From Escherichia phage vB_EcoP_K: a stretch of DNA of 37,775 bases. The notes under the pieces were generated by a model. That model did no database searches. It saw only the letters and a program-made list of their open reading frames with translations, and was not told the origin of the DNA. Shown piece after piece: positions 11,426-15,917 of this stretch; the first letter of the stretch is position 1; each line of letters begins with the position of its first letter. The stretch is from the sequence record NC_047809.1. One strand, 5' to 3'. The position numbers and the translations under genes are program-made.

Positions 11426-11620
11426 ATGATTAACTCCGAACTGGTAGATAGTGGTGTGAAGCTGGCGCCACCTGCATTAGTATCAGGTGGGTACTTCCTC
11501 GGTATCAGTTGGGATAATTGGGTGTTAATAGCAACATTCATTTATACCGTGTTGCAAATTGGAGACTGGTTTTATACCAAGATTAAACTATGGAGGAGGA
11601 GCCATGAGCGTACACAATAA
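11426..11620 (+). CDS. Holin, T7 gp17.5-like (class II)
   Basis: TAAGGAGGTG RBS; 64 aa; ..LAPPALVSGGYFLGISWDNWVLIATFIYTVLQIGDWFY.. aligns in pattern with T7 gp17.5 (..AAPIVGTGVADV..WFYVAAIAYTVVQIGAKV..); located between tail-fibre gene and small terminase as in T7. Confidence 0.7.
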   Translation: MINSELVDSGVKLAPPALVSGGYFLGISWDNWVLIATFIYTVLQIGDWFYTKIKLWRRSHERTQ

Positions 11621-11903
11621 ACATGCAGCTACGGAAGACGAGGTTGGCATTCTACATGGTGCTATTACCAAAATCTTTAATAAGAAAGCACAGGCAATAC
11701 TGGACACTATAGAAGAAGACCCAGATGCAGCACTGCATTTAGTCTCTGGTAAAGACATTGGAGCTATGTGTAAGTGGGTTCTTGATAATGGTATTACCGC
11801 TACACCCGCTGCACAGCAGGAGGAGTCCAAGCTATCTAAGCGCCTCAAGGCTATCCGAGAGGCATCAAGTGGCAAGATCATCCAATTCACTAAGGAGGAT
11901 TGA
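11604..11903 (+). CDS. Terminase small subunit (T7 gp18-like), 99 aa
   Basis: GGAGGAG RBS before ATG 11604; small acidic helical protein immediately upstream of and overlapping the large terminase gene. Confidence 0.6.
   Translation: MSVHNKHAATEDEVGILHGAITKIFNKKAQAILDTIEEDPDAALHLVSGKDIGAMCKWVLDNGITATPAAQQEESKLSKRLKAIREASSGKIIQFTKED
11695..11717 (+). promoter_or_regulatory. SP6-class phage RNAP promoter (inside the terminase small subunit gene)
   Basis: CAATACTGGACACTATAGAAGAA; core identical to other copies; predicted +1 G at 11712. Confidence 0.6.
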
Positions 11904-13801
11904 TGGCTAAGGCAAGAGAATCACAAGCGGAGGCTCTTGCCAGATGGGAGATGCTACAGGAGTTACAGCAGACTTTTCCGTATACGGCGGAAGGTTTGCT
12001 TCTCTTTGCAGATACAGTTATCCATAACTTGATTGCAGGCAACCCTCATCTGATTCGTATGCAGGCCGATATTTTAAAGTTTCTATTCTATGGACATAAA
12101 TATCGCCTCATCGAAGCGCCCCGTGGTATCGCTAAAACTACACTATCAGCAATCTATACTGTTTTCCGTATCATCCATGAACCCCATAAGCGTATCATGG
12201 TAGTATCCCAAAACGCCAAGCGAGCAGAGGAAATCGCAGGTTGGGTAGTTAAAATCTTCCGTGGCCTAGACTTTCTTGAGTTTATGCTACCGGACATCTA
12301 CGCAGGGGACCGTGCCTCAGTTAAGGCATTTGAGATTCATTACACCCTACGTGGCAGTGACAAGTCGCCTTCTGTGTCTTGTTACTCAATCGAAGCAGGT
12401 ATGCAGGGTGCGCGTGCAGATATCATCCTAGCAGATGACGTTGAGTCAATGCAGAATGCTCGTACAGCGGCAGGACGTGCCTTGCTTGAGGAACTGACCA
12501 AGGAGTTTGAATCTATTAACCAGTTTGGTGATATTATCTACCTTGGTACTCCTCAGAACGTAAACTCTATCTACAATAACCTACCTACTCGTGGTTACTC
12601 TGTTCGTATCTGGACTGCACGTTATCCCTCAGTGGAGCAGGAGCAATGCTATGGTGACTCCCTTGCACCTATGATTGTGCAGGATATGAAGGACAACCCA
12701 GCACTTCGCTCAGGGTATGGCTTGGATGGCAATAGTGGTGCACCTTGTGCACCTGAAATGTATGATGATGATGTGCTGATCGAGAAGGAAATCTCGCAGG
12801 GTGCGGCTAAGTTCCAGCTTCAGTTTATGCTTAACACTCGCATGATGGATGCTGACCGCTATCCACTACGCCTGAACAACCTCATCTTCACTTCATTCGG
12901 TACAGAGGAAGTCCCTGTGGTGCCTACATGGAGCAACGACTCTATTAACATCATTGGCGATGCACCGAAGTATGGCAATAAGCCTACAGACTTTATGTAT
13001 CGCCCTGTGGCCCGACCTTATGAGTGGGGTGCTGTTACCCGAAAGATTATGTATATTGACCCCGCAGGTGGCGGTAAGAACGGGGATGAAACGGGTGTGG
13101 CTATCGTCTTCCTGCACGGCACATTCATTTATGTGTATCAGTGCTTTGGTGTTCCGGGAGGATACCGCGAATCGTCCCTGAATCGCATTGTGCAGGCCGC
13201 AAAGCAGGCAGGTGTTAAAGAGGTATTCATTGAAAAGAACTTTGGTCATGGCGCGTTTGAGGCCGTTATAAAGCCATACTTTGAACGAGAGTGGCCTGTG
13301 ACTCTGGAGGAAGATTACGCCACCGGACAGAAAGAGTTGCGTATCATTGAAACACTAGAGCCACTAATGGCGGCCCACAGGCTCATCTTCAACGCAGAGA
13401 TGGTCAAGTCTGATTTTGAGTCGGTACAGCACTATCCGCTTGAACTACGCATGTCATACAGCCTTTTCAATCAAATGTCGAACATCACGATTGAGAAGAA
13501 CAGCCTACGACACGATGACCGCTTAGACGCTCTGTATGGCGCTATACGGCAATTAACTTCTCAGATAGACTATGACGAGGTTACACGGATTAATCGCCTC
13601 AGAGCGCAGGAGATGCGCGATTACATCCATGCTATGAACACACCTCACCTCCGTAGGGCAATGCTCTATGGAGATTATGGCACTGAGCGAAGAGTAACCA
13701 ACACTTCCGTGGCTATGCAGCAAAGAGTATACGGTCAGAATTACAGGAGTAAATCGGCAAGCAGAAATACACTTTCTGCAAGGATTTCAAGGACTTATTA
13801 A
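11903..13801 (+). CDS. Terminase large subunit (T7 gp19-like), 632 aa
   Basis: Start overlaps upstream stop (TGATG); ATPase region ..RLIEAPRGIAKTT.. and ..IILADDVES..; C-terminal nuclease-like region; size and synteny. Confidence 0.9.
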   Translation: MAKARESQAEALARWEMLQELQQTFPYTAEGLLLFADTVIHNLIAGNPHLIRMQADILKFLFYGHKYRLIEAPRGIAKTTLSAIYTVFRIIHEPHKRIMVVSQNAKRAEEIAGWVVKIFRGLDFLEFMLPDIYAGDRASVKAFEIHYTLRGSDKSPSVSCYSIEAGMQGARADIILADDVESMQNARTAAGRALLEELTKEFESINQFGDIIYLGTPQNVNSIYNNLPTRGYSVRIWTARYPSVEQEQCYGDSLAPMIVQDMKDNPALRSGYGLDGNSGAPCAPEMYDDDVLIEKEISQGAAKFQLQFMLNTRMMDADRYPLRLNNLIFTSFGTEEVPVVPTWSNDSINIIGDAPKYGNKPTDFMYRPVARPYEWGAVTRKIMYIDPAGGGKNGDETGVAIVFLHGTFIYVYQCFGVPGGYRESSLNRIVQAAKQAGVKEVFIEKNFGHGAFEAVIKPYFEREWPVTLEEDYATGQKELRIIETLEPLMAAHRLIFNAEMVKSDFESVQHYPLELRMSYSLFNQMSNITIEKNSLRHDDRLDALYGAIRQLTSQIDYDEVTRINRLRAQEMRDYIHAMNTPHLRRAMLYGDYGTERRVTNTSVAMQQRVYGQNYRSKSASRNTLSARISRTY

Positions 13802-13823: not shown

Positions 13824-13961
13824 GGCCCAGATAATAAGAGAAATAACAAGGATAATATAGGTTAACCTAGGTTATATAGGTATGCCTTAGTATGGGTGTA
13901 CTCCTGTACACCCTATTCCTTACTTCCTTACTATACTTACATAATAGGAGAGAGAGAGAGA

Positions 13962-14261
13962 ATGTCTAATAGTTATAGTACACAACCCCTTACAGGTAAG
14001 TCTGCTCGTAAGCAGATACAACCTGTGAGTGAAGCCCTGATACTTCCTGTAGTTTACGAGGACACTGTTGAGAAGAAAGGTGATGTTATTAATGATGCCA
14101 CCAAATCAGGTAAGCAGAAAGGGGCCATGGTGTGTCTTGATACACATGCTAACCTGGTTATTGCTATCGCAGTTGATGGCAAAGAAGATTCCAATTGGTT
14201 GACAGCTAATAAAGCGGTCACTACTATTACCCCCAGCTTAAGAGGAGAGTTACATGTCTGA
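13962..14261 (+). CDS. Hypothetical protein, paralogue 1 of a tandem pair (99 aa)
   Basis: ATG preceded by GGAGAGAGAGAGAGA; shares ..SGKQKGAMV..L.IAIA.. block with the next ORF. Confidence 0.5.
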   Translation: MSNSYSTQPLTGKSARKQIQPVSEALILPVVYEDTVEKKGDVINDATKSGKQKGAMVCLDTHANLVIAIAVDGKEDSNWLTANKAVTTITPSLRGELHV

Positions 14262-14547
14262 ATATGGAACCACAGGTACTGTTACTGGTCAGGCTTTTCG
14301 AGTAAAAACTGTACAAACCACTGCAACGGCAATCCCTTTGCCTATTGTTGCTGAAGCAGACCTTAAGAAGAAAGATCATCCTATCAACATTAAACACCTC
14401 TCTGGTAAACAGAAAGGCGCCATGGTTGCTGTAGAGAAAGCAGACCAATCCTTGTACATCGCTATTGCACGTGGGAGTGAACCCACCGACAAGTGGGATG
14501 CAACTACTATGAAGTCGGACCCTGTAACACCTGCGGCTGAATTGTAA
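14254..14547 (+). CDS. Hypothetical protein, paralogue 2 of a tandem pair (97 aa)
   Basis: RBS AGAGGAG; shares ..K.INIKHLSGKQKGAMVAVEKADQSLYIAIA.. with the preceding ORF; 8-nt overlap with it. Confidence 0.5.
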   Translation: MSEYGTTGTVTGQAFRVKTVQTTATAIPLPIVAEADLKKKDHPINIKHLSGKQKGAMVAVEKADQSLYIAIARGSEPTDKWDATTMKSDPVTPAAEL

Positions 14548-14561
14548 AGACGAGGTCAATA

Positions 14562-14906
14562 ATGCTTAACAAACACTTCAAGCGCCGTGAGTTCGCTTGC
14601 CGTTGTGGGTGCGGTACATCCACAGTAGATGCTGAGTTACTACAGGTAGTCACAGATGTACGTGAGCACTTTGGTGCTCCTGTAGTTATTACTTCTGGAC
14701 ACCGCTGTGCTAAGCACAATGCTAATGTGGGAGGTGCTAAGAACTCCATGCATCTTACTGGTAAGGCTGCTGACATTAAGGTACAAGGTATTACACCTTA
14801 CCGTGTGTGGTCCTATCTAACAGCACGCTACCCCAATAAATATGGCATTGGGTCTTATCCTAATTTCACCCACATTGATGTAAGAGAGGGATGTGCACGA
14901 TGGTAA
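14562..14906 (+). CDS. Endolysin, zinc metallopeptidase of the M15/LAS type (probable L-alanyl-D-glutamate or D-Ala-D-Ala peptidase)
   Basis: 114 aa with ..SGHRCAKHNANVGGAKNSMHLTGKAADIKV.. and ..FTHIDVRE.. (H-x6-D and distal H zinc ligands typical of LAS peptidases, as in T5 endolysin); followed by membrane protein and spanins. Confidence 0.75.
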   Translation: MLNKHFKRREFACRCGCGTSTVDAELLQVVTDVREHFGAPVVITSGHRCAKHNANVGGAKNSMHLTGKAADIKVQGITPYRVWSYLTARYPNKYGIGSYPNFTHIDVREGCARW

Positions 14907-15014
14907 GATGTATTGAATGGTGCGAGCGCATGGTTGCTCAAGCTGCCGAGGGTGGCAACTATGATGACTGGAAGGACTACTCGGACTTATTAGCTCAATG
15001 GAAAGGGAGATGTA

Positions 15015-15164
15015 ATGAAAAAGCTGTTTAAGTCTAAGAAAGTGGTAGGTGCACTGGTTGCACTGGTGATTGCTCTTGTTTCTGTAGGTCTTGGCGTAGA
15101 CCTAGGTGAAGGTACTGAAGGTTCCGTCACTGACGTGGTATGCCAAGTAATCACCTGTGAATAA
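15015..15164 (+). CDS. Small membrane protein (49 aa), possible second holin/antiholin or lysis accessory protein
   Basis: AAGGGAGA RBS; MKKLFKSKKVVGALVALVIALVSVGLGVDLG.. single predicted TM helix; position between endolysin and spanins. Confidence 0.4.
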   Translation: MKKLFKSKKVVGALVALVIALVSVGLGVDLGEGTEGSVTDVVCQVITCE

Positions 15165-15378
15165 GGTGCTAGAGGTGGTAGCAGGTCTTATTGGCCTGCT
15201 GCTTGCCGCTAAGAAGAAGAAGGAAGAGAAGGAGGCACAAAGTGAGGCGAATCATGCTAGCGACAATCCTGCTGATTGGTTCGCTGATCACTTCAGGGTG
15301 TCAGACGGCGTTACCAGAGAATCCAAAGGTGAAGCCTCTGAAGCCGACGCTTACGGCAGTCTACGAGGTGGACGATAA
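15157..15378 (+). CDS. Putative i-spanin-like protein (Rz-position), unusually short (67-73 aa); start codon uncertain (GTG)
   Basis: N-terminal hydrophobic segment VLEVVAGLIGLLLAA followed by charged region; contains the start of the o-spanin ORF in another frame. Confidence 0.3.
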   Translation: MNKVLEVVAGLIGLLLAAKKKKEEKEAQSEANHASDNPADWFADHFRVSDGVTRESKGEASEADAYGSLRGGR

Positions 15379-15451
15379 AGTCTGCTTCAGTAAGCCTGAC
15401 GCTACAAAATTAGGTATGTACATTCTCTCGCTAGAACGCGGGTATAATTAA
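15254..15451 (+). CDS. o-spanin (Rz1-like outer-membrane lipoprotein), 65 aa
   Basis: GAGG 6 nt upstream; signal peptide MLATILLIGSLITSGC with lipobox-like ITSG|C; short proline-rich mature part (LPENPKVKPLKPT); starts inside and extends beyond the i-spanin candidate (overlapped architecture). Confidence 0.5.
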   Translation: MLATILLIGSLITSGCQTALPENPKVKPLKPTLTAVYEVDDKVCFSKPDATKLGMYILSLERGYN

Positions 15452-15480
15452 TACATAGTTTATGTATCAGTGTCTTACGA

Positions 15481-15503
15481 TTTACTGGACACTATAGAAG
15501 AGA
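15481..15503 (+). promoter_or_regulatory. SP6-class phage RNAP promoter (tailspike operon)
   Basis: ATTTACTGGACACTATAGAAGAG; predicted +1 G at 15498. Confidence 0.75.
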
Positions 15504-15581
15504 TAAGATAGTGCCGTTCTTTTGAGCGGCCTATTACTAGCCAATCTTCATAGGGAGGGTTGGGAAGTAATAGGAGAGTAT

Positions 15582-15917
15582 ATGGCTAAGTTAACTAAAC
15601 CCAAGACAACTGGCTTACTACATAGAGATACTGTACTAGCTACATTATTGGATAATTTACTATCTAAAAGGCGTGTTACATTTGAAGGTGTAGTTCCAAG
15701 TGAAGATACTAAAATTGAGATAGAAGTACCTGCAACAGGAGATTTAGATTCTTCGTGGGCATCACTTGTATCATTAAGTACACCTACACTTTGTACAGCT
15801 TGGATTACTAAAGTGTCAGATACTAGATTAGAAGTACATGTATTCCATACAGCACAAGTTGAAATAGACATAGATGTAGATGTTTACATTCTAGGTAAAC
15901 ACATTGTCAGTGCGTAA
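15582..15917 (+). CDS. 111-aa ORF upstream of endosialidase; probable remnant/adaptor-binding N-terminal module of a second tailspike
   Basis: AGGAG RBS; from recollection, phage K1E carries a 111-aa ORF at this position similar to the N-terminus of the K1-5 K5-lyase tailspike; not verifiable here. Confidence 0.5.
   Translation: MAKLTKPKTTGLLHRDTVLATLLDNLLSKRRVTFEGVVPSEDTKIEIEVPATGDLDSSWASLVSLSTPTLCTAWITKVSDTRLEVHVFHTAQVEIDIDVDVYILGKHIVSA

What the first reader, a model, noticed from the sequence alone, without database searches (positions are those of the whole stretch)
14562..15451. Split lysis system with an unusually short i-spanin candidate overlapping an o-spanin lipoprotein
The holin is T7 gp17.5-like and sits about 3 kb upstream (11426-11620). 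The late lysis cassette has an M15-type zinc peptidase endolysin rather than a T7-type amidase, a 49-aa single-TM protein, and an overlapped spanin pair. The i-spanin candidate (67-73 aa, GTG start) is far shorter than typical Rz proteins, so either it is mis-called, the complex is atypical, or the 49-aa TM protein is part of the system.
Basis: partly seen in the sequence, partly recalled or inferred. Interest (0 to 1): 0.4.

Follow-up and report, generated by a model that had tools for sequence, protein, structure and literature searches.

The report
Mini spanin-like gene pair, K1E-type phage
Behind the cell-wall-cutting enzyme of this K1E-like coliphage lie three tiny genes: a 49-residue membrane protein, a 73-residue helical protein that many public records (K1E RefSeq among them) leave unannotated but that is clearly real, and a small outer-membrane lipoprotein whose gene overlaps it. 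The last two always travel together, and which protein partners the lipoprotein in breaking the outer membrane is still unsettled in the databases.

Summary
The window is a K1E-like Vectrevirus. It carries an M15 endolysin (14562-14906), a 49-aa one-TMD protein (gp44, 15015-15164), a GTG-start 73-aa ORF (ORF73, 15157-15378) and an overlapping lipoprotein (gp45, 15242/15254-15451). A T7-type holin lies 3 kb upstream.

ORF73 is a real gene. Its non-overlapped part shows codon-periodic variation, with pN/pS 0.31 against 1.6-3.2 in the other frames. It belongs to a family of 49-95-aa proteins (phrog_9219, function unknown). All 48 sequences examined that carry a gp45-type lipoprotein also carry an ORF73-like gene. 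They span several phage lineages, at least six endolysin types and three unrelated upstream membrane proteins. The two genes overlap in 46 sequences and are separate in 2.

That is how Rz/Rz1 spanin pairs behave, so ORF73+gp45 is the likeliest outer-membrane disruption pair. However, ORF73 has no canonical transmembrane segment, and its flanking charges predict the wrong orientation. gp44 has i-spanin topology and is the protein SpaninDB and GenBank call the i-spanin. Both assignments are already published for different phages, and neither has been tested. I rate this an atypical variant of a known system, of moderate interest.

The parts
11426..11620 (+). T7 gp17.5-type holin (K1E gp38 homologue), encoded apart from the rest of the lysis genes
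   Evidence: Pfam PF10746 Phage_holin_2_2, E=5.5e-27; phrog_920 'holin'. RefSeq K1E gene 38 is labelled 'holin'.
14562..14906 (+). Endolysin, a zinc peptidase of the M15_3 family (K1E gp43). It has no signal or SAR (signal-arrest-release) sequence, so it should depend on a holin.
   Evidence: Pfam PF08291, E=5.5e-33, covering the full model; phrog_894 'endolysin', 3e-45. The N-terminus MLNKHFKRREF... is not hydrophobic.
14900..15031 (+). 43-aa soluble Cys-rich ORF ('gp43.5') of unknown function. It overlaps the endolysin stop and the gp44 start.
   Evidence: phrog_1312, E=1.2e-17. Annotated in vB_EcoP_B as HOR57_gp40. tblastn finds it in 30 of 32 sequences.
15015..15164 (+). gp44: a 49-aa bitopic inner-membrane protein. 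Layout: MKKLFKSKK, a 19-aa TMD, then a 21-aa acidic tail ending in a conserved CxxxxC. Predicted N-in/C-out. RefSeq calls it 'holin'; SpaninDB, GenBank SP6 and the CPT annotation of Premi call it 'i-spanin'.
   Evidence: KD19 is 2.76, with 5 K/R before the TMD and 0 after. phrog_4712, E=3.2e-27. pN/pS is 0.25 in its own frame. See also SpaninDB and the SP6 and Premi records.
15157..15378 (+). ORF73 (phrog_9219): a 73-aa protein, unannotated in K1E RefSeq. Its GTG start lies inside gp44's last codons (GTGAATAA), which suggests translational coupling. Predicted structure: one long helix (aa 2-36, hydrophobic for the first ~18 residues and then K/E-rich), a short helix carrying DNPADWFADHF (aa 38-46), and a disordered tail.
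   Evidence: Codon-position diversity is 0.20/0.05/0.34 and pN/pS is 0.31 in its own frame over 15166-15240. The frame is open in 48 of 48 sequences. 67 representative clusters match, all short. The AF2 model has pLDDT 81.
15242..15451 (+). gp45: a 69-aa prolipoprotein (o-spanin-like, phrog_8971). Signal peptide and lipobox ITSG|C with Gln at +2. The mature 50 aa comprise a Pro-rich tether and a beta-beta-alpha mini-domain ending in LGMYILSLERGYN.
   Evidence: AGGAGG followed by 6 nt and then GTG at 15242. phrog_8971 'Rz-like spanin', E=9e-40. pN/pS is 0.12 in the non-overlapped part. The AF2 model has pLDDT 82, with E40-43, E46-49 and H51-65. It is the only lipoprotein-like ORF found in the window.
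15242..15301 (+). Dual-coding core, the most conserved DNA of the region. It encodes ORF73's EANHASDNPADWFADHF in one frame and the gp45 signal peptide in the other.
   Evidence: Mean diversity is 0.087, against 0.23 in the next segment. The periodicity follows the ORF73 frame (0.084/0.043/0.135), not the gp45 frame.

Best explanation
The region is the envelope-disruption half of a K1E/SP6-type lysis system.

**Proposed sequence of events.** The T7-type holin (11426-11620) opens the inner membrane. gp44 may assist, since it belongs to a holin-like family of small membrane proteins. The M15 endolysin then degrades the wall. Outer-membrane disruption is carried out by a two-gene module with Rz/Rz1-like gene architecture.
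- gp45 is lipidated and sorted to the inner leaflet of the outer membrane.
- ORF73, made by translational coupling to gp44, is its specific partner.

I propose that ORF73 sits in or on the inner membrane through its short N-terminal hydrophobic helix. I also propose that it contacts the beta-beta-alpha domain of gp45 (LGxYIxxLERGY) through its conserved DPxDWFxxHF motif. The pair would then act as a miniature, atypical spanin once the wall is gone.

**Shown here**
- ORF73 is a real gene.
- It is intrinsically short.
- It is invariably linked to gp45-type lipoproteins while the endolysin and the upstream membrane protein vary.
- gp45 has lipoprotein features.

**Inferred only**
- The location and orientation of ORF73.
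- Any physical ORF73-gp45 contact.
- The lysis role of either protein.
- The role of gp44.
For: **1. ORF73 codes for protein.**
- In 15166-15240, where nothing else is encoded, diversity by codon position is 0.20/0.05/0.34 (position 3 greater than position 2, p=1.7e-5).
- pN/pS is 0.31 in its own frame, against 3.2 and 1.6 in the other two frames. For comparison, gp44 gives 0.25 and gp45 gives 0.12 in their own frames.

**2. The pairing with gp45 is constant.**
- HMMs for both families hit all 48 held sequences.
- Five loci recruited from distant gp45 homologues alone all carry an ORF73-like gene.
- Eight loci recruited from distant ORF73 homologues alone all carry a gp45-like lipoprotein.

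**3. The pair behaves as a mobile module.**
- It occurs beside M15_3, lytic transglycosylase, PF00959 lysozyme, Amidase_3, M23 and DUF5675 endolysins.
- It occurs in Autographiviridae, in a lambdoid-like contig, in temperate Vibrio phage X29 and in a Halomonas prophage.

**4. Gene architecture varies as it does in spanin families.**
- The genes overlap in the +1 frame in 46 sequences.
- They are separate in 2. L046 has a 24-nt gap. X29 has a gene inserted between them, and its ORF73-like protein is only 58 aa.

**5. The upstream membrane protein is not constant.**
- Three unrelated families fill that slot: phrog_4712, phrog_34682 and phrog_9685. Two of them have topologies that cannot be an i-spanin.

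**6. gp44's tail does not track the lipoprotein.**
- Its C-terminal CxxxxC tail is conserved even in ICP3, where the neighbouring lipoprotein is unrelated. The ORF73 and gp45 motifs, by contrast, are always conserved together.

**7. Others have made the same call.**
- SpaninDB for UAB_Phi78 and the Pantoea phage Nufs112 record, which labels the pair 'Rz-like' and 'Rz1-like'.
Against: - **No canonical TMD in ORF73.** KD19 is 1.46 in the window and below 1.6 in 50 of 66 family members. The longest uncharged run is 12 aa here, with a family median of 8 and none reaching 18. Fifty of 66 members have 3 or more charged residues within aa 2-21.
- **Predicted orientation is wrong.** All 65 members have more K/R after the hydrophobic core than before it (median 4 against 1). 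That predicts a cytoplasmic C-terminus, the opposite of an i-spanin.
- **No signal peptide** is evident.
- **The pair looks too short.** About 55 plus 50 periplasmic residues, partly disordered, seems too little to bridge the periplasm.
- **The C-terminal tail of ORF73 is poorly conserved** and is absent in X29. In lambda, from my own knowledge, the Rz C-terminus binds Rz1.
- **ORF73 is also tied to the upstream gene.** It is translationally coupled to the upstream membrane protein, and in X29 it stays next to that gene rather than next to the lipoprotein.
- **gp44 has textbook i-spanin topology.** In ICP3 a gp44 homologue and a small lipoprotein occupy the T7 18.5/18.7 slot, with no ORF73 or gp45 homologue anywhere in that genome.
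- **No experimental data** were found for any of these proteins.
Confidence: 0.45

Rival explanations
1. This is the published assignment: gp44 (49 aa) is the i-spanin and gp45 the o-spanin, in a 'separated' architecture. ORF73 would be an accessory or unrelated small protein that happens to fill the 77-nt gap between them.
For: - gp44 has the defining i-spanin topology: K-rich N-terminus, 19-aa TMD, acidic periplasmic tail.
- It carries two conserved periplasmic Cys. SpaninDB argues that disulfides are general in spanins.
- In ICP3 and the VP4 family a gp44 homologue directly precedes a small lipoprotein between terminase genes 18 and 19. From my own knowledge, that is where T7 has Rz/Rz1. 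ICP3 has no ORF73 or gp45 homologue.
- GenBank SP6 (gene 56) and the CPT (Center for Phage Technology) annotation of Proteus phage Premi use this assignment.
Against: - The periplasmic tail is only 18-21 residues. The SpaninDB curators themselves flagged it 'Too small?' and 'Too short'.
- gp44 is replaced by unrelated membrane proteins of other topologies in loci that keep ORF73+gp45.
- A two-TMD holin-like protein in the same slot weakly matches the gp44 profile (phrog_4712, E=4.9e-4). This suggests holin-like ancestry.
- The gp44 tail is conserved regardless of which lipoprotein follows it.
- This model leaves the strictly conserved ORF73 unexplained.
Confidence: 0.25
2. ORF73 stays in the cytoplasm or on the cytoplasmic face of the inner membrane. 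There it acts as a lysis regulator or membrane-active accessory, for example a partner or antagonist of the small membrane protein it is coupled to. gp45 would act without it.
For: - Flanking charges predict a C-terminus on the cytoplasmic side in all 65 members, and no member has a TMD-length uncharged run.
- The N-terminal helix is amphipathic (median hydrophobic moment 0.48).
- ORF73 is always directly downstream of a small membrane protein, with overlapping stop and start codons. In X29 it remains adjacent to that gene while the lipoprotein gene has been separated from it.
Against: - The upstream partners belong to three unrelated families with different topologies. A specific protein-protein role with all of them is therefore unlikely.
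- ORF73 was never found without a gp45-type lipoprotein (48 of 48).
- It was not found in ICP3, which has a gp44-type protein but a different lipoprotein.
Confidence: 0.15
3. All three proteins form one tripartite envelope-spanning device: gp44 as the inner-membrane anchor, ORF73 as the bridging piece and gp45 as the outer-membrane anchor.
For: - The three genes are contiguous and coupled in every Molineuxvirinae and Gajwadongvirus locus examined, and in Ralstonia phage Reminis.
- Summed non-membrane residues (about 21 + 55 + 50) approach the length of classical spanin pairs, whereas each two-protein combination looks too short.
Against: - gp44 is dispensable for the ORF73/gp45 pair in many lineages.
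- ICP3 has a gp44-type protein without ORF73.
- No export route for ORF73 is evident.
Confidence: 0.1
4. ORF73 is not a gene. It would be an open frame kept open only by constraints on the overlapping lipoprotein gene.
For: - K1E RefSeq and several other records do not annotate it.
- It has a GTG start with no Shine-Dalgarno sequence.
Against: - A coding signature is present in the part that overlaps nothing.
- Distant homologues have ATG starts.
- It persists as a free-standing gene in X29 and L046.
- Sixty-seven representative clusters match its profile.
Confidence: 0.02

Closest known systems
Lambda Rz/Rz1 and other two-component spanins (overlapped class)
   Same: - A small gene with an N-terminal hydrophobic helix followed by a charged helix, with an outer-membrane lipoprotein gene starting inside it in the +1 frame.
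- The pair lies in a lysis cassette next to the endolysin.
- The pair moves as a unit, and the architecture switches between overlapped and separated among relatives. SpaninDB describes this behaviour for spanin families.
   Different: - The ORF73 hydrophobic segment is 6-16 residues without charge, not about 20.
- The charge bias predicts the opposite orientation.
- The helical part is about 18-28 residues rather than about 100, and no coiled-coil pair is predicted.
- There is no sequence or fold similarity to any described spanin.
SpaninDB entries for K1-5/K1E/SP6 ('separated' gp44+gp45) and for UAB_Phi78 ('overlapped', 69-aa i-spanin + 61-aa o-spanin); Kongari et al. 2018, PMC6139136
   Same: These are the same genes. 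The window's gp44 and gp45 are 98% and 98.6% identical to the K1E proteins. The UAB_Phi78 'overlapped i-spanin' is the ORF73 homologue.
   Different: The database gives two incompatible assignments for orthologous loci, with curator doubts recorded ('Too small?', 'Too short'). Here the ORF73 family is shown to be under selection and to be the constant partner of the lipoprotein.
VP4/ICP3 family of 'too short' spanins in T7-like Vibrio phages
   Same: The ICP3 47-aa protein matches phrog_4712, the gp44 family (E=7.1e-23). It has the same K-rich N-terminus, TMD and CxxxxC tail, and it is followed by a roughly 65-aa lipoprotein.
   Different: The lipoprotein is unrelated to gp45. There is no ORF73-like gene. 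The location is between the terminase genes rather than after the endolysin.
Unimolecular spanin (T1 gp11 type)
   Same: An outer-membrane lipoprotein signal on a small lysis-cassette protein.
   Different: gp45 has no C-terminal transmembrane domain. It ends in a short amphipathic helix...LGMYILSLERGYN.
phiKT gp28 'disruptin', an amphipathic peptide that breaks the outer membrane in spanin-less phages (bioRxiv 10.1101/515445, abstract seen)
   Same: A small helical lysis protein without a true TMD, from a coliphage lysis region. ORF73 has an amphipathic N-terminal helix.
   Different: ORF73 is net acidic (-2; family median -2), not cationic. It is always paired with a lipoprotein. No homology was tested or found.

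Membership tests
Two-component spanin: o-spanin (gp45, 15242-15451) | N-terminal signal peptide ending in a lipobox Cys | tested here: met
   MRRIMLATILLIGSLITSG|C. Homologues carry LTGC, LTAC, LAGC, LSGC or IQGC, and the Cys is invariant in 33 aligned sequences. Lipidation itself was not tested.
Two-component spanin: o-spanin (gp45) | Sorted to the outer membrane (no Asp at +2) | tested here: met
   Position +2 is Gln in the window. None of the 33 family members has Asp at +2. The sorting rule comes from established knowledge of the E. coli Lol pathway.
Two-component spanin: i-spanin, candidate ORF73 (15157-15378) | Single N-terminal transmembrane domain with N-in/C-out (type II) topology | tested here: not met
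   - KD19 maximum is 1.46 (threshold 1.6), and the longest uncharged run is 12 aa.
- No family member has a run of 18 aa or more, and 50 of 66 are below the KD threshold.
- The K/R bias points to C-in in all 65 members.
- Caveat: these are crude scales, and no TMHMM-class predictor was available. A 15-residue hydrophobic stretch could still insert marginally.
Two-component spanin: i-spanin, candidate ORF73 | Gene immediately upstream of, overlapping or embedding the o-spanin gene | tested here: met
   The overlap is 137 nt in the +1 frame in the window. The genes overlap in 46 of 48 sequences and are adjacent but separate in 2.
Two-component spanin: i-spanin, candidate ORF73 | Long, mostly helical (coiled-coil) periplasmic domain able to reach the o-spanin | tested here: inconclusive
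   AF2 predicts helix 2-36 and helix 38-46 followed by a disordered tail. The soluble helical part is only about 28 residues. SpaninDB lists other predicted i-spanins with periplasmic domains of 45-55 aa.
Two-component spanin: i-spanin, candidate gp44 (15015-15164) | Single N-terminal TMD with N-in/C-out topology | tested here: met
   A 19-aa uncharged segment, KD19 of 2.76, 5 K/R before and 0 after. All 9 homologues examined show the same pattern.
Two-component spanin: i-spanin, candidate gp44 | Periplasmic domain long enough to bridge to the o-spanin | tested here: not met
   The tail is 21 residues. [quoted passage not shown]
Two-component spanin (either pairing) | Periplasmic Cys available for intermolecular disulfides (proposed as general in PMC6139136) | tested here: inconclusive
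   gp45 has one extra Cys in the window, as do 29 of 33 relatives; 3 have none. gp44 has CxxxxC. ORF73 has no Cys.
Two-component spanin (either pairing) | Physical complex spanning the periplasm, required for outer-membrane disruption | not testable with these tools
   This needs genetics and biochemistry. No experimental paper was found.
Holin (candidate gp44, as labelled by RefSeq and PHROGs) | Small membrane protein of a lysis cassette whose accumulation permeabilises the inner membrane | tested here: inconclusive
   - It matches phrog_4712 'holin' at E=3.2e-27, but that label is untested.
- The same slot is filled elsewhere by phrog_34682 'holin' (2 TMD) or by phrog_9685.
- A Pfam holin is present in addition in this window, in L038 and in L045.
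T7-family holin (11426-11620) | Match to Pfam PF10746 above its gathering score | tested here: met
   93.7 bits against a cut-off of 25.4, E=5.5e-27.
Peptidase M15_3 endolysin (14562-14906) | Match to Pfam PF08291 above its gathering score, over the full length | tested here: met
   113.8 bits against a cut-off of 23.2, covering model positions 1-108 of 108.

The most novel reading that the evidence does not exclude
The phrog_9219/phrog_8971 pair (ORF73 + gp45) is a distinct, widespread class of outer-membrane disruption device. Its inner partner would not be an integral type II membrane protein. It would be either a TMD-less helical protein that reaches the lipoprotein only once the holin has opened the inner membrane, or the middle piece of a three-part bridge anchored by a small membrane protein such as gp44. 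Under this reading the definition used to find spanins (a TMD protein plus a lipoprotein) mis-assigns these phages and some phages currently listed as odd or 'too short'.
Probability: 0.2. Interest if true: 0.7.

Novelty: new variant of a known kind. Interest (0 to 1): 0.42.

Why it matters
- **Relevance of the phages.** K1E, K1-5 and SP6-type phages are used as therapy candidates and as sources of capsule depolymerases, yet their outer-membrane lysis step rests on annotations that contradict each other. The same 49-aa gene is called 'holin' or 'i-spanin'. The ORF73 frame is unannotated in some records, labelled 'Rz-like' in one, and mislabelled 'o-spanin' in GenBank SP6.
- **What changes.** ORF73 is a selected gene and the invariant partner of the lipoprotein in at least four phage lineages. 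That gives a concrete three-gene target for genetics.
- **Possible wider consequence.** If ORF73 proves to work without a true membrane anchor, the rule-based definition of spanins would need widening. The set of phages regarded as having 'too short' spanins or none would need re-examination.

Tried and rejected
- **A longer i-spanin made by frameshifting or fusion of gp44 and ORF73.** Rejected. Distant homologues have their own ATG starts in TAATG or TAAATG coupling arrangements, and ORF73-like genes also follow unrelated upstream genes.
- **ORF73 as a truncated relative of a long i-spanin.** Rejected. A profile search of 1.84 billion representatives found 67 clusters, 65 of them 49-95 aa and nearly all matching from at or near their own N-terminus. 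The 132-aa and 103-aa exceptions match only the C-terminal part and look like different ORF calls.
- **Pfam and fold searches for ORF73 and gp45.** No informative hit beyond their own families.
- **Single-sequence searches with ORF73 and gp44** returned only close relatives without names.
- **The search for related loci with the diverse ORF73 alignment** failed because it had no sufficiently conserved stretch.
- **Literature searches** found no functional study of these three genes. The KBNP1315 paper tested only the T7-type holin homologue and the endolysin.
They are not used as evidence.
- **Hydrophobicity tests** used Kyte-Doolittle, Hessa-2005 and Eisenberg scales only. No TMHMM, Phobius or SignalP/LipoP was available.
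Full report
**What the window is**

The 14200-15600 stretch is 99.3% identical to Escherichia phage vB_EcoP_B and 98.5% identical to K1E (Autographiviridae, Molineuxvirinae, Vectrevirus). RefSeq annotates the K1E region as follows:
- gp43, endolysin;
- gp44, 'holin';
- gp45, 'Rz-like spanin';
- gene 38, a second 'holin', upstream of the terminase genes.

**Check of the observation**

Every element is present where stated.
- The endolysin (14562-14906) is a full-length Peptidase_M15_3 (E=5.5e-33).
- The ORF at 11426-11620 is a T7-family holin (PF10746, E=5.5e-27).
- gp44 (15015-15164) has a 19-residue uncharged segment, five K/R before it and none after it.
- ORF73 runs 15157-15378.
- The lipoprotein frame is best started at GTG 15242. 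AGGAGG lies at 15230-15235, followed by a 6-nt spacer. This gives MRRIMLATILLIGSLITSG|C. SpaninDB uses the same start for K1E.
- ORF73 and gp45 overlap by 137 nt, with gp45 in the +1 frame.
- A heuristic scan found no other lipoprotein-like ORF in the 37.8-kb window.

**Is ORF73 a gene?**

I collected 47 related loci from phage records, IMG/VR and metagenome contigs and compared them with the window.

*Coding signature.* I used the 22 distinct sequences of the K1E/K1-5/SP6 group and the 75 nt of ORF73 that overlap nothing (15166-15240).

| Segment and frame | Diversity by codon position (1/2/3) | pN/pS |
|---|---|---|
| ORF73-only segment, ORF73 frame | 0.20 / 0.05 / 0.34 | 0.31 |
| ORF73-only segment, other two frames | – | 3.2 and 1.6 |
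| gp44-only segment, gp44 frame | 0.16 / 0.12 / 0.48 | 0.25 |
| gp45-only segment, gp45 frame | 0.11 / 0.00 / 0.27 | 0.12 |

In the ORF73 frame, position 3 exceeds position 2 with Mann-Whitney p=1.7e-5.

*Dual-coding core.* The stretch encoding the gp45 signal peptide (15242-15301) is the most conserved DNA of the region, with mean diversity 0.087. Its periodicity follows the ORF73 frame. Signal peptides are normally free to vary, so this points to constraint from ORF73's EANHASDNPADWFADHF. Downstream (15302-15378) the periodicity switches to the gp45 frame. The ORF73 tail is therefore weakly constrained.

*Start codons.* Distant homologues have ATG starts in coupling arrangements with the upstream stop codon: TAATG in Ralstonia phage Reminis and Pectobacterium PP99, and TAAATG in Pantoea Nufs112.

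*Free-standing copies.* In Vibrio phage X29 and in contig L046 the ORF73-like gene does not overlap the lipoprotein gene at all and is 58 aa long.

The 'chance open frame' reading is excluded.

**What kind of protein is ORF73?**

- A profile search of 1.84 billion representative proteins found 67 clusters. Sixty-five are 49-95 aa, and nearly all match from at or near their own N-terminus. The protein is intrinsically short, not a truncated long i-spanin.
- All 65 members scanned match phrog_9219, 'unknown function'. None has a significant Pfam match (best E=0.0017, two members, DUF5569).
- Family consensus: an L-rich N-terminal helix, then a K/R/E/Q-rich stretch with AQxExD, then [DN]PxxWFxxHFxG, then a variable acidic or polar tail.
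- AlphaFold2 with a 65-sequence alignment gives one long helix (aa 2-36, pLDDT above 90), a short helix (aa 38-46) and a disordered tail.
- Hydrophobicity falls short of a transmembrane segment.
  - The Kyte-Doolittle 19-residue maximum is 1.46 in the window and below 1.6 in 50 of 66 members.
  - The longest run free of charged or strongly polar residues is 12 aa here. The family median is 8 and the maximum 16.
  - Fifty of 66 members have three or more charged residues within aa 2-21.
  - The median helical hydrophobic moment is 0.48.
  - All 65 members have more K/R after the hydrophobic core than before it, median 4 against 1.
- By these crude measures the N-terminus is a hydrophobic-to-amphipathic helix, not a conserved TMD. 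The charge bias predicts that the C-terminus stays on the cytoplasmic side.
- In the K1E clade the 15-residue stretch VLEVVAGLIGLLLAA might still insert marginally. I could not run a dedicated predictor.

**Who is paired with whom?**

- HMMs for the ORF73 family and the gp45 family each hit all 48 sequences held.
- Recruitment was done from both sides. Five loci found only through distant gp45-like lipoproteins all contain an ORF73-like gene. Eight loci found only through distant ORF73-like proteins all contain a gp45-like lipoprotein with the conserved PxKP...LGxYIxxLERGY pattern.
- The pair occurs next to M15_3 peptidases, lytic transglycosylases, a PF00959 lysozyme, Amidase_3, Peptidase_M23 and DUF5675 proteins.
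- It occurs in Molineuxvirinae, Gajwadongvirus, Ralstonia and Salicola podophages, a lambdoid-like contig with a Q antiterminator, temperate Vibrio phage X29 and a Halomonas prophage.
- The gene just upstream of ORF73 is always a small membrane protein, but it comes from three unrelated families:

| Family | Features |
|---|---|
| phrog_4712 (gp44) | One TMD, N-in/C-out, CxxxxC tail |
| phrog_34682 ('holin') | Two TMDs |
| phrog_9685 | One TMD, acidic N-terminus and basic C-terminus, so N-out/C-in |

.
- In this window, in L038 and in L045 a Pfam-recognised holin is present in addition to that small protein.
- ORF73 and gp45 are therefore the constant pair and gp44 is the replaceable element. 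This is how Rz/Rz1-type pairs evolve, including the switch between overlapped and separated layouts that SpaninDB describes.

**The case for gp44**

- SpaninDB (Kongari et al. 2018, PMC6139136) lists K1E, K1-5 and SP6 as 'separated' spanins, with gp44 as i-spanin and gp45 as o-spanin. [quoted passage not shown]
- The updated GenBank SP6 record and the CPT (Center for Phage Technology) annotation of Proteus phage Premi follow that assignment.
- gp44 has the right topology and two conserved periplasmic cysteines.
- Vibrio phage ICP3 (Studiervirinae) has a 47-aa protein of the gp44 family (phrog_4712, E=7.1e-23) directly before an unrelated 65-aa lipoprotein, between terminase genes 18 and 19. 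From my own knowledge, T7 has 18.5/18.7 at that position. ICP3 has no ORF73 or gp45 homologue anywhere in its genome.
- This is real evidence that gp44-type proteins work with outer-membrane lipoproteins, and it is why I keep this rival at 0.25.
- Against it:
  - The periplasmic tail is only 21 residues.
  - The tail motif stays the same whichever lipoprotein follows.
  - gp44 is absent from many loci that keep ORF73+gp45.
  - A two-TMD holin-like protein occupying the same slot weakly matches the gp44 profile.

For UAB_Phi78, an SP6 relative, SpaninDB records an 'overlapped' pair: a 69-aa i-spanin at 39883-40090 and a 61-aa o-spanin at 39980-40166. That 69-aa protein is the ORF73 homologue. 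The Pantoea phage Nufs112 record labels the two genes 'Rz-like' and 'Rz1-like'. The finding is therefore not new as an annotation. What is new here is the evidence that resolves ORF73's coding status and shows the strict pairing.

**gp45**

- It is a 69-aa prolipoprotein with Gln at +2. No member of the family has Asp there, so it is predicted to go to the outer membrane (the Lol sorting rule is established knowledge).
- AlphaFold2 gives a flexible Pro-rich tether followed by a confident beta-beta-alpha mini-domain (E40-43, E46-49, H51-65; pLDDT 93-96).
- It has no C-terminal TMD, so it is not a unimolecular spanin.
- Fold searches returned only family members.

**Most likely mechanism and its weak points**

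I commit to ORF73+gp45 as the outer-membrane disruption pair. It would be a miniature, atypical spanin, with the T7-type holin as the trigger and gp44 as a holin-like or accessory membrane protein. My confidence is 0.45.

Weak points:
- ORF73 lacks a canonical anchor and has the wrong charge bias.
- No export route is visible.
- Neither ORF73+gp45 (about 55 + 50 residues) nor gp44+gp45 (21 + 50) looks long enough to bridge the periplasm when folded.

These points keep alive three alternatives: a cytoplasmic regulatory role for ORF73 (0.15), a tripartite gp44-ORF73-gp45 bridge (0.10), and a partner released through holin lesions (part of the novel case). All localisation, interaction and function statements are inference. 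No experiment on these proteins was found.

**Verdict**

The gene is real and is the lipoprotein's constant partner, but it fails a defining i-spanin feature.
- It is an atypical variant of a known kind of system. Both candidate assignments are already in public databases, so interest is moderate (0.42).

Noticed in passing
L022 (GenBank AY288927.2, SP6) 1437-1634 and 1501-1710: SP6 gene 48 is labelled 'o-spanin' (record 39607-39804), but it translates to the ORF73 homologue VAGLLGLLLAYKKKQ..., which has no lipobox and no Cys. The true lipoprotein ORF (MKQIWLAMTLLIGSLTISGC..., record 39671-39880) is not annotated in that record. The label sits on the wrong reading frame.
   Followed up: yes
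L032 (RefSeq NC_015159, Vibrio phage ICP3) 1265-1408: The annotated orf51 (30 aa, GTG start, locus 1267-1359) is in a different frame from the 47-aa gp44-like membrane protein (1265-1408), which is unannotated. With the next gene, a 65-aa lipoprotein, it fills the position between terminase genes 18 and 19.
   Followed up: partly
window 14900-15031: A 43-aa soluble, Cys-rich ORF (MVRCIEWCERM...KGRCNEKAV) overlaps the endolysin stop and the gp44 start. It matches phrog_1312 (unknown function) and is recognisable in 30 of 32 sequences compared, including Proteus, Ralstonia and Pectobacterium phages. Its role in the cassette is unknown.
   Followed up: partly
window 11900-13801: The large terminase subunit is a single intact 633-aa ORF here, as in vB_EcoP_B. 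The K1E reference has it split into 40A and 40B by a putative homing endonuclease gene, 40.5.
   Followed up: no
window 15480-15502: ATTTACTGGACACTATAGAAGAG lies 29 nt after the gp45 stop. From memory, it resembles the SP6/K1E-type phage RNA polymerase promoter. The Proteus phage Pm5460 record annotates a phage promoter and a terminator at the equivalent place. It would mark the end of the lysis transcription unit.
   Followed up: no
window 13896-14261 and 14254-14547: Two adjacent small proteins of about 90-120 aa (K1E gp41 and gp42), apparently paralogous, are labelled 'acetyl-CoA acetyltransferase' in RefSeq and PHROGs (phrog_2725). gp42, the one scanned, has no Pfam match. The label looks implausible for proteins of this size.
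   Followed up: no
L027 950-1264 (Pectobacterium phage PP99), L028, L041, L043: Gajwadongvirus-type cassettes carry an extra 104-aa ORF (phrog_38226, unknown function) between the small Cys-rich ORF and the gp44 homologue. They use a lytic transglycosylase instead of the M15 peptidase.
   Followed up: no
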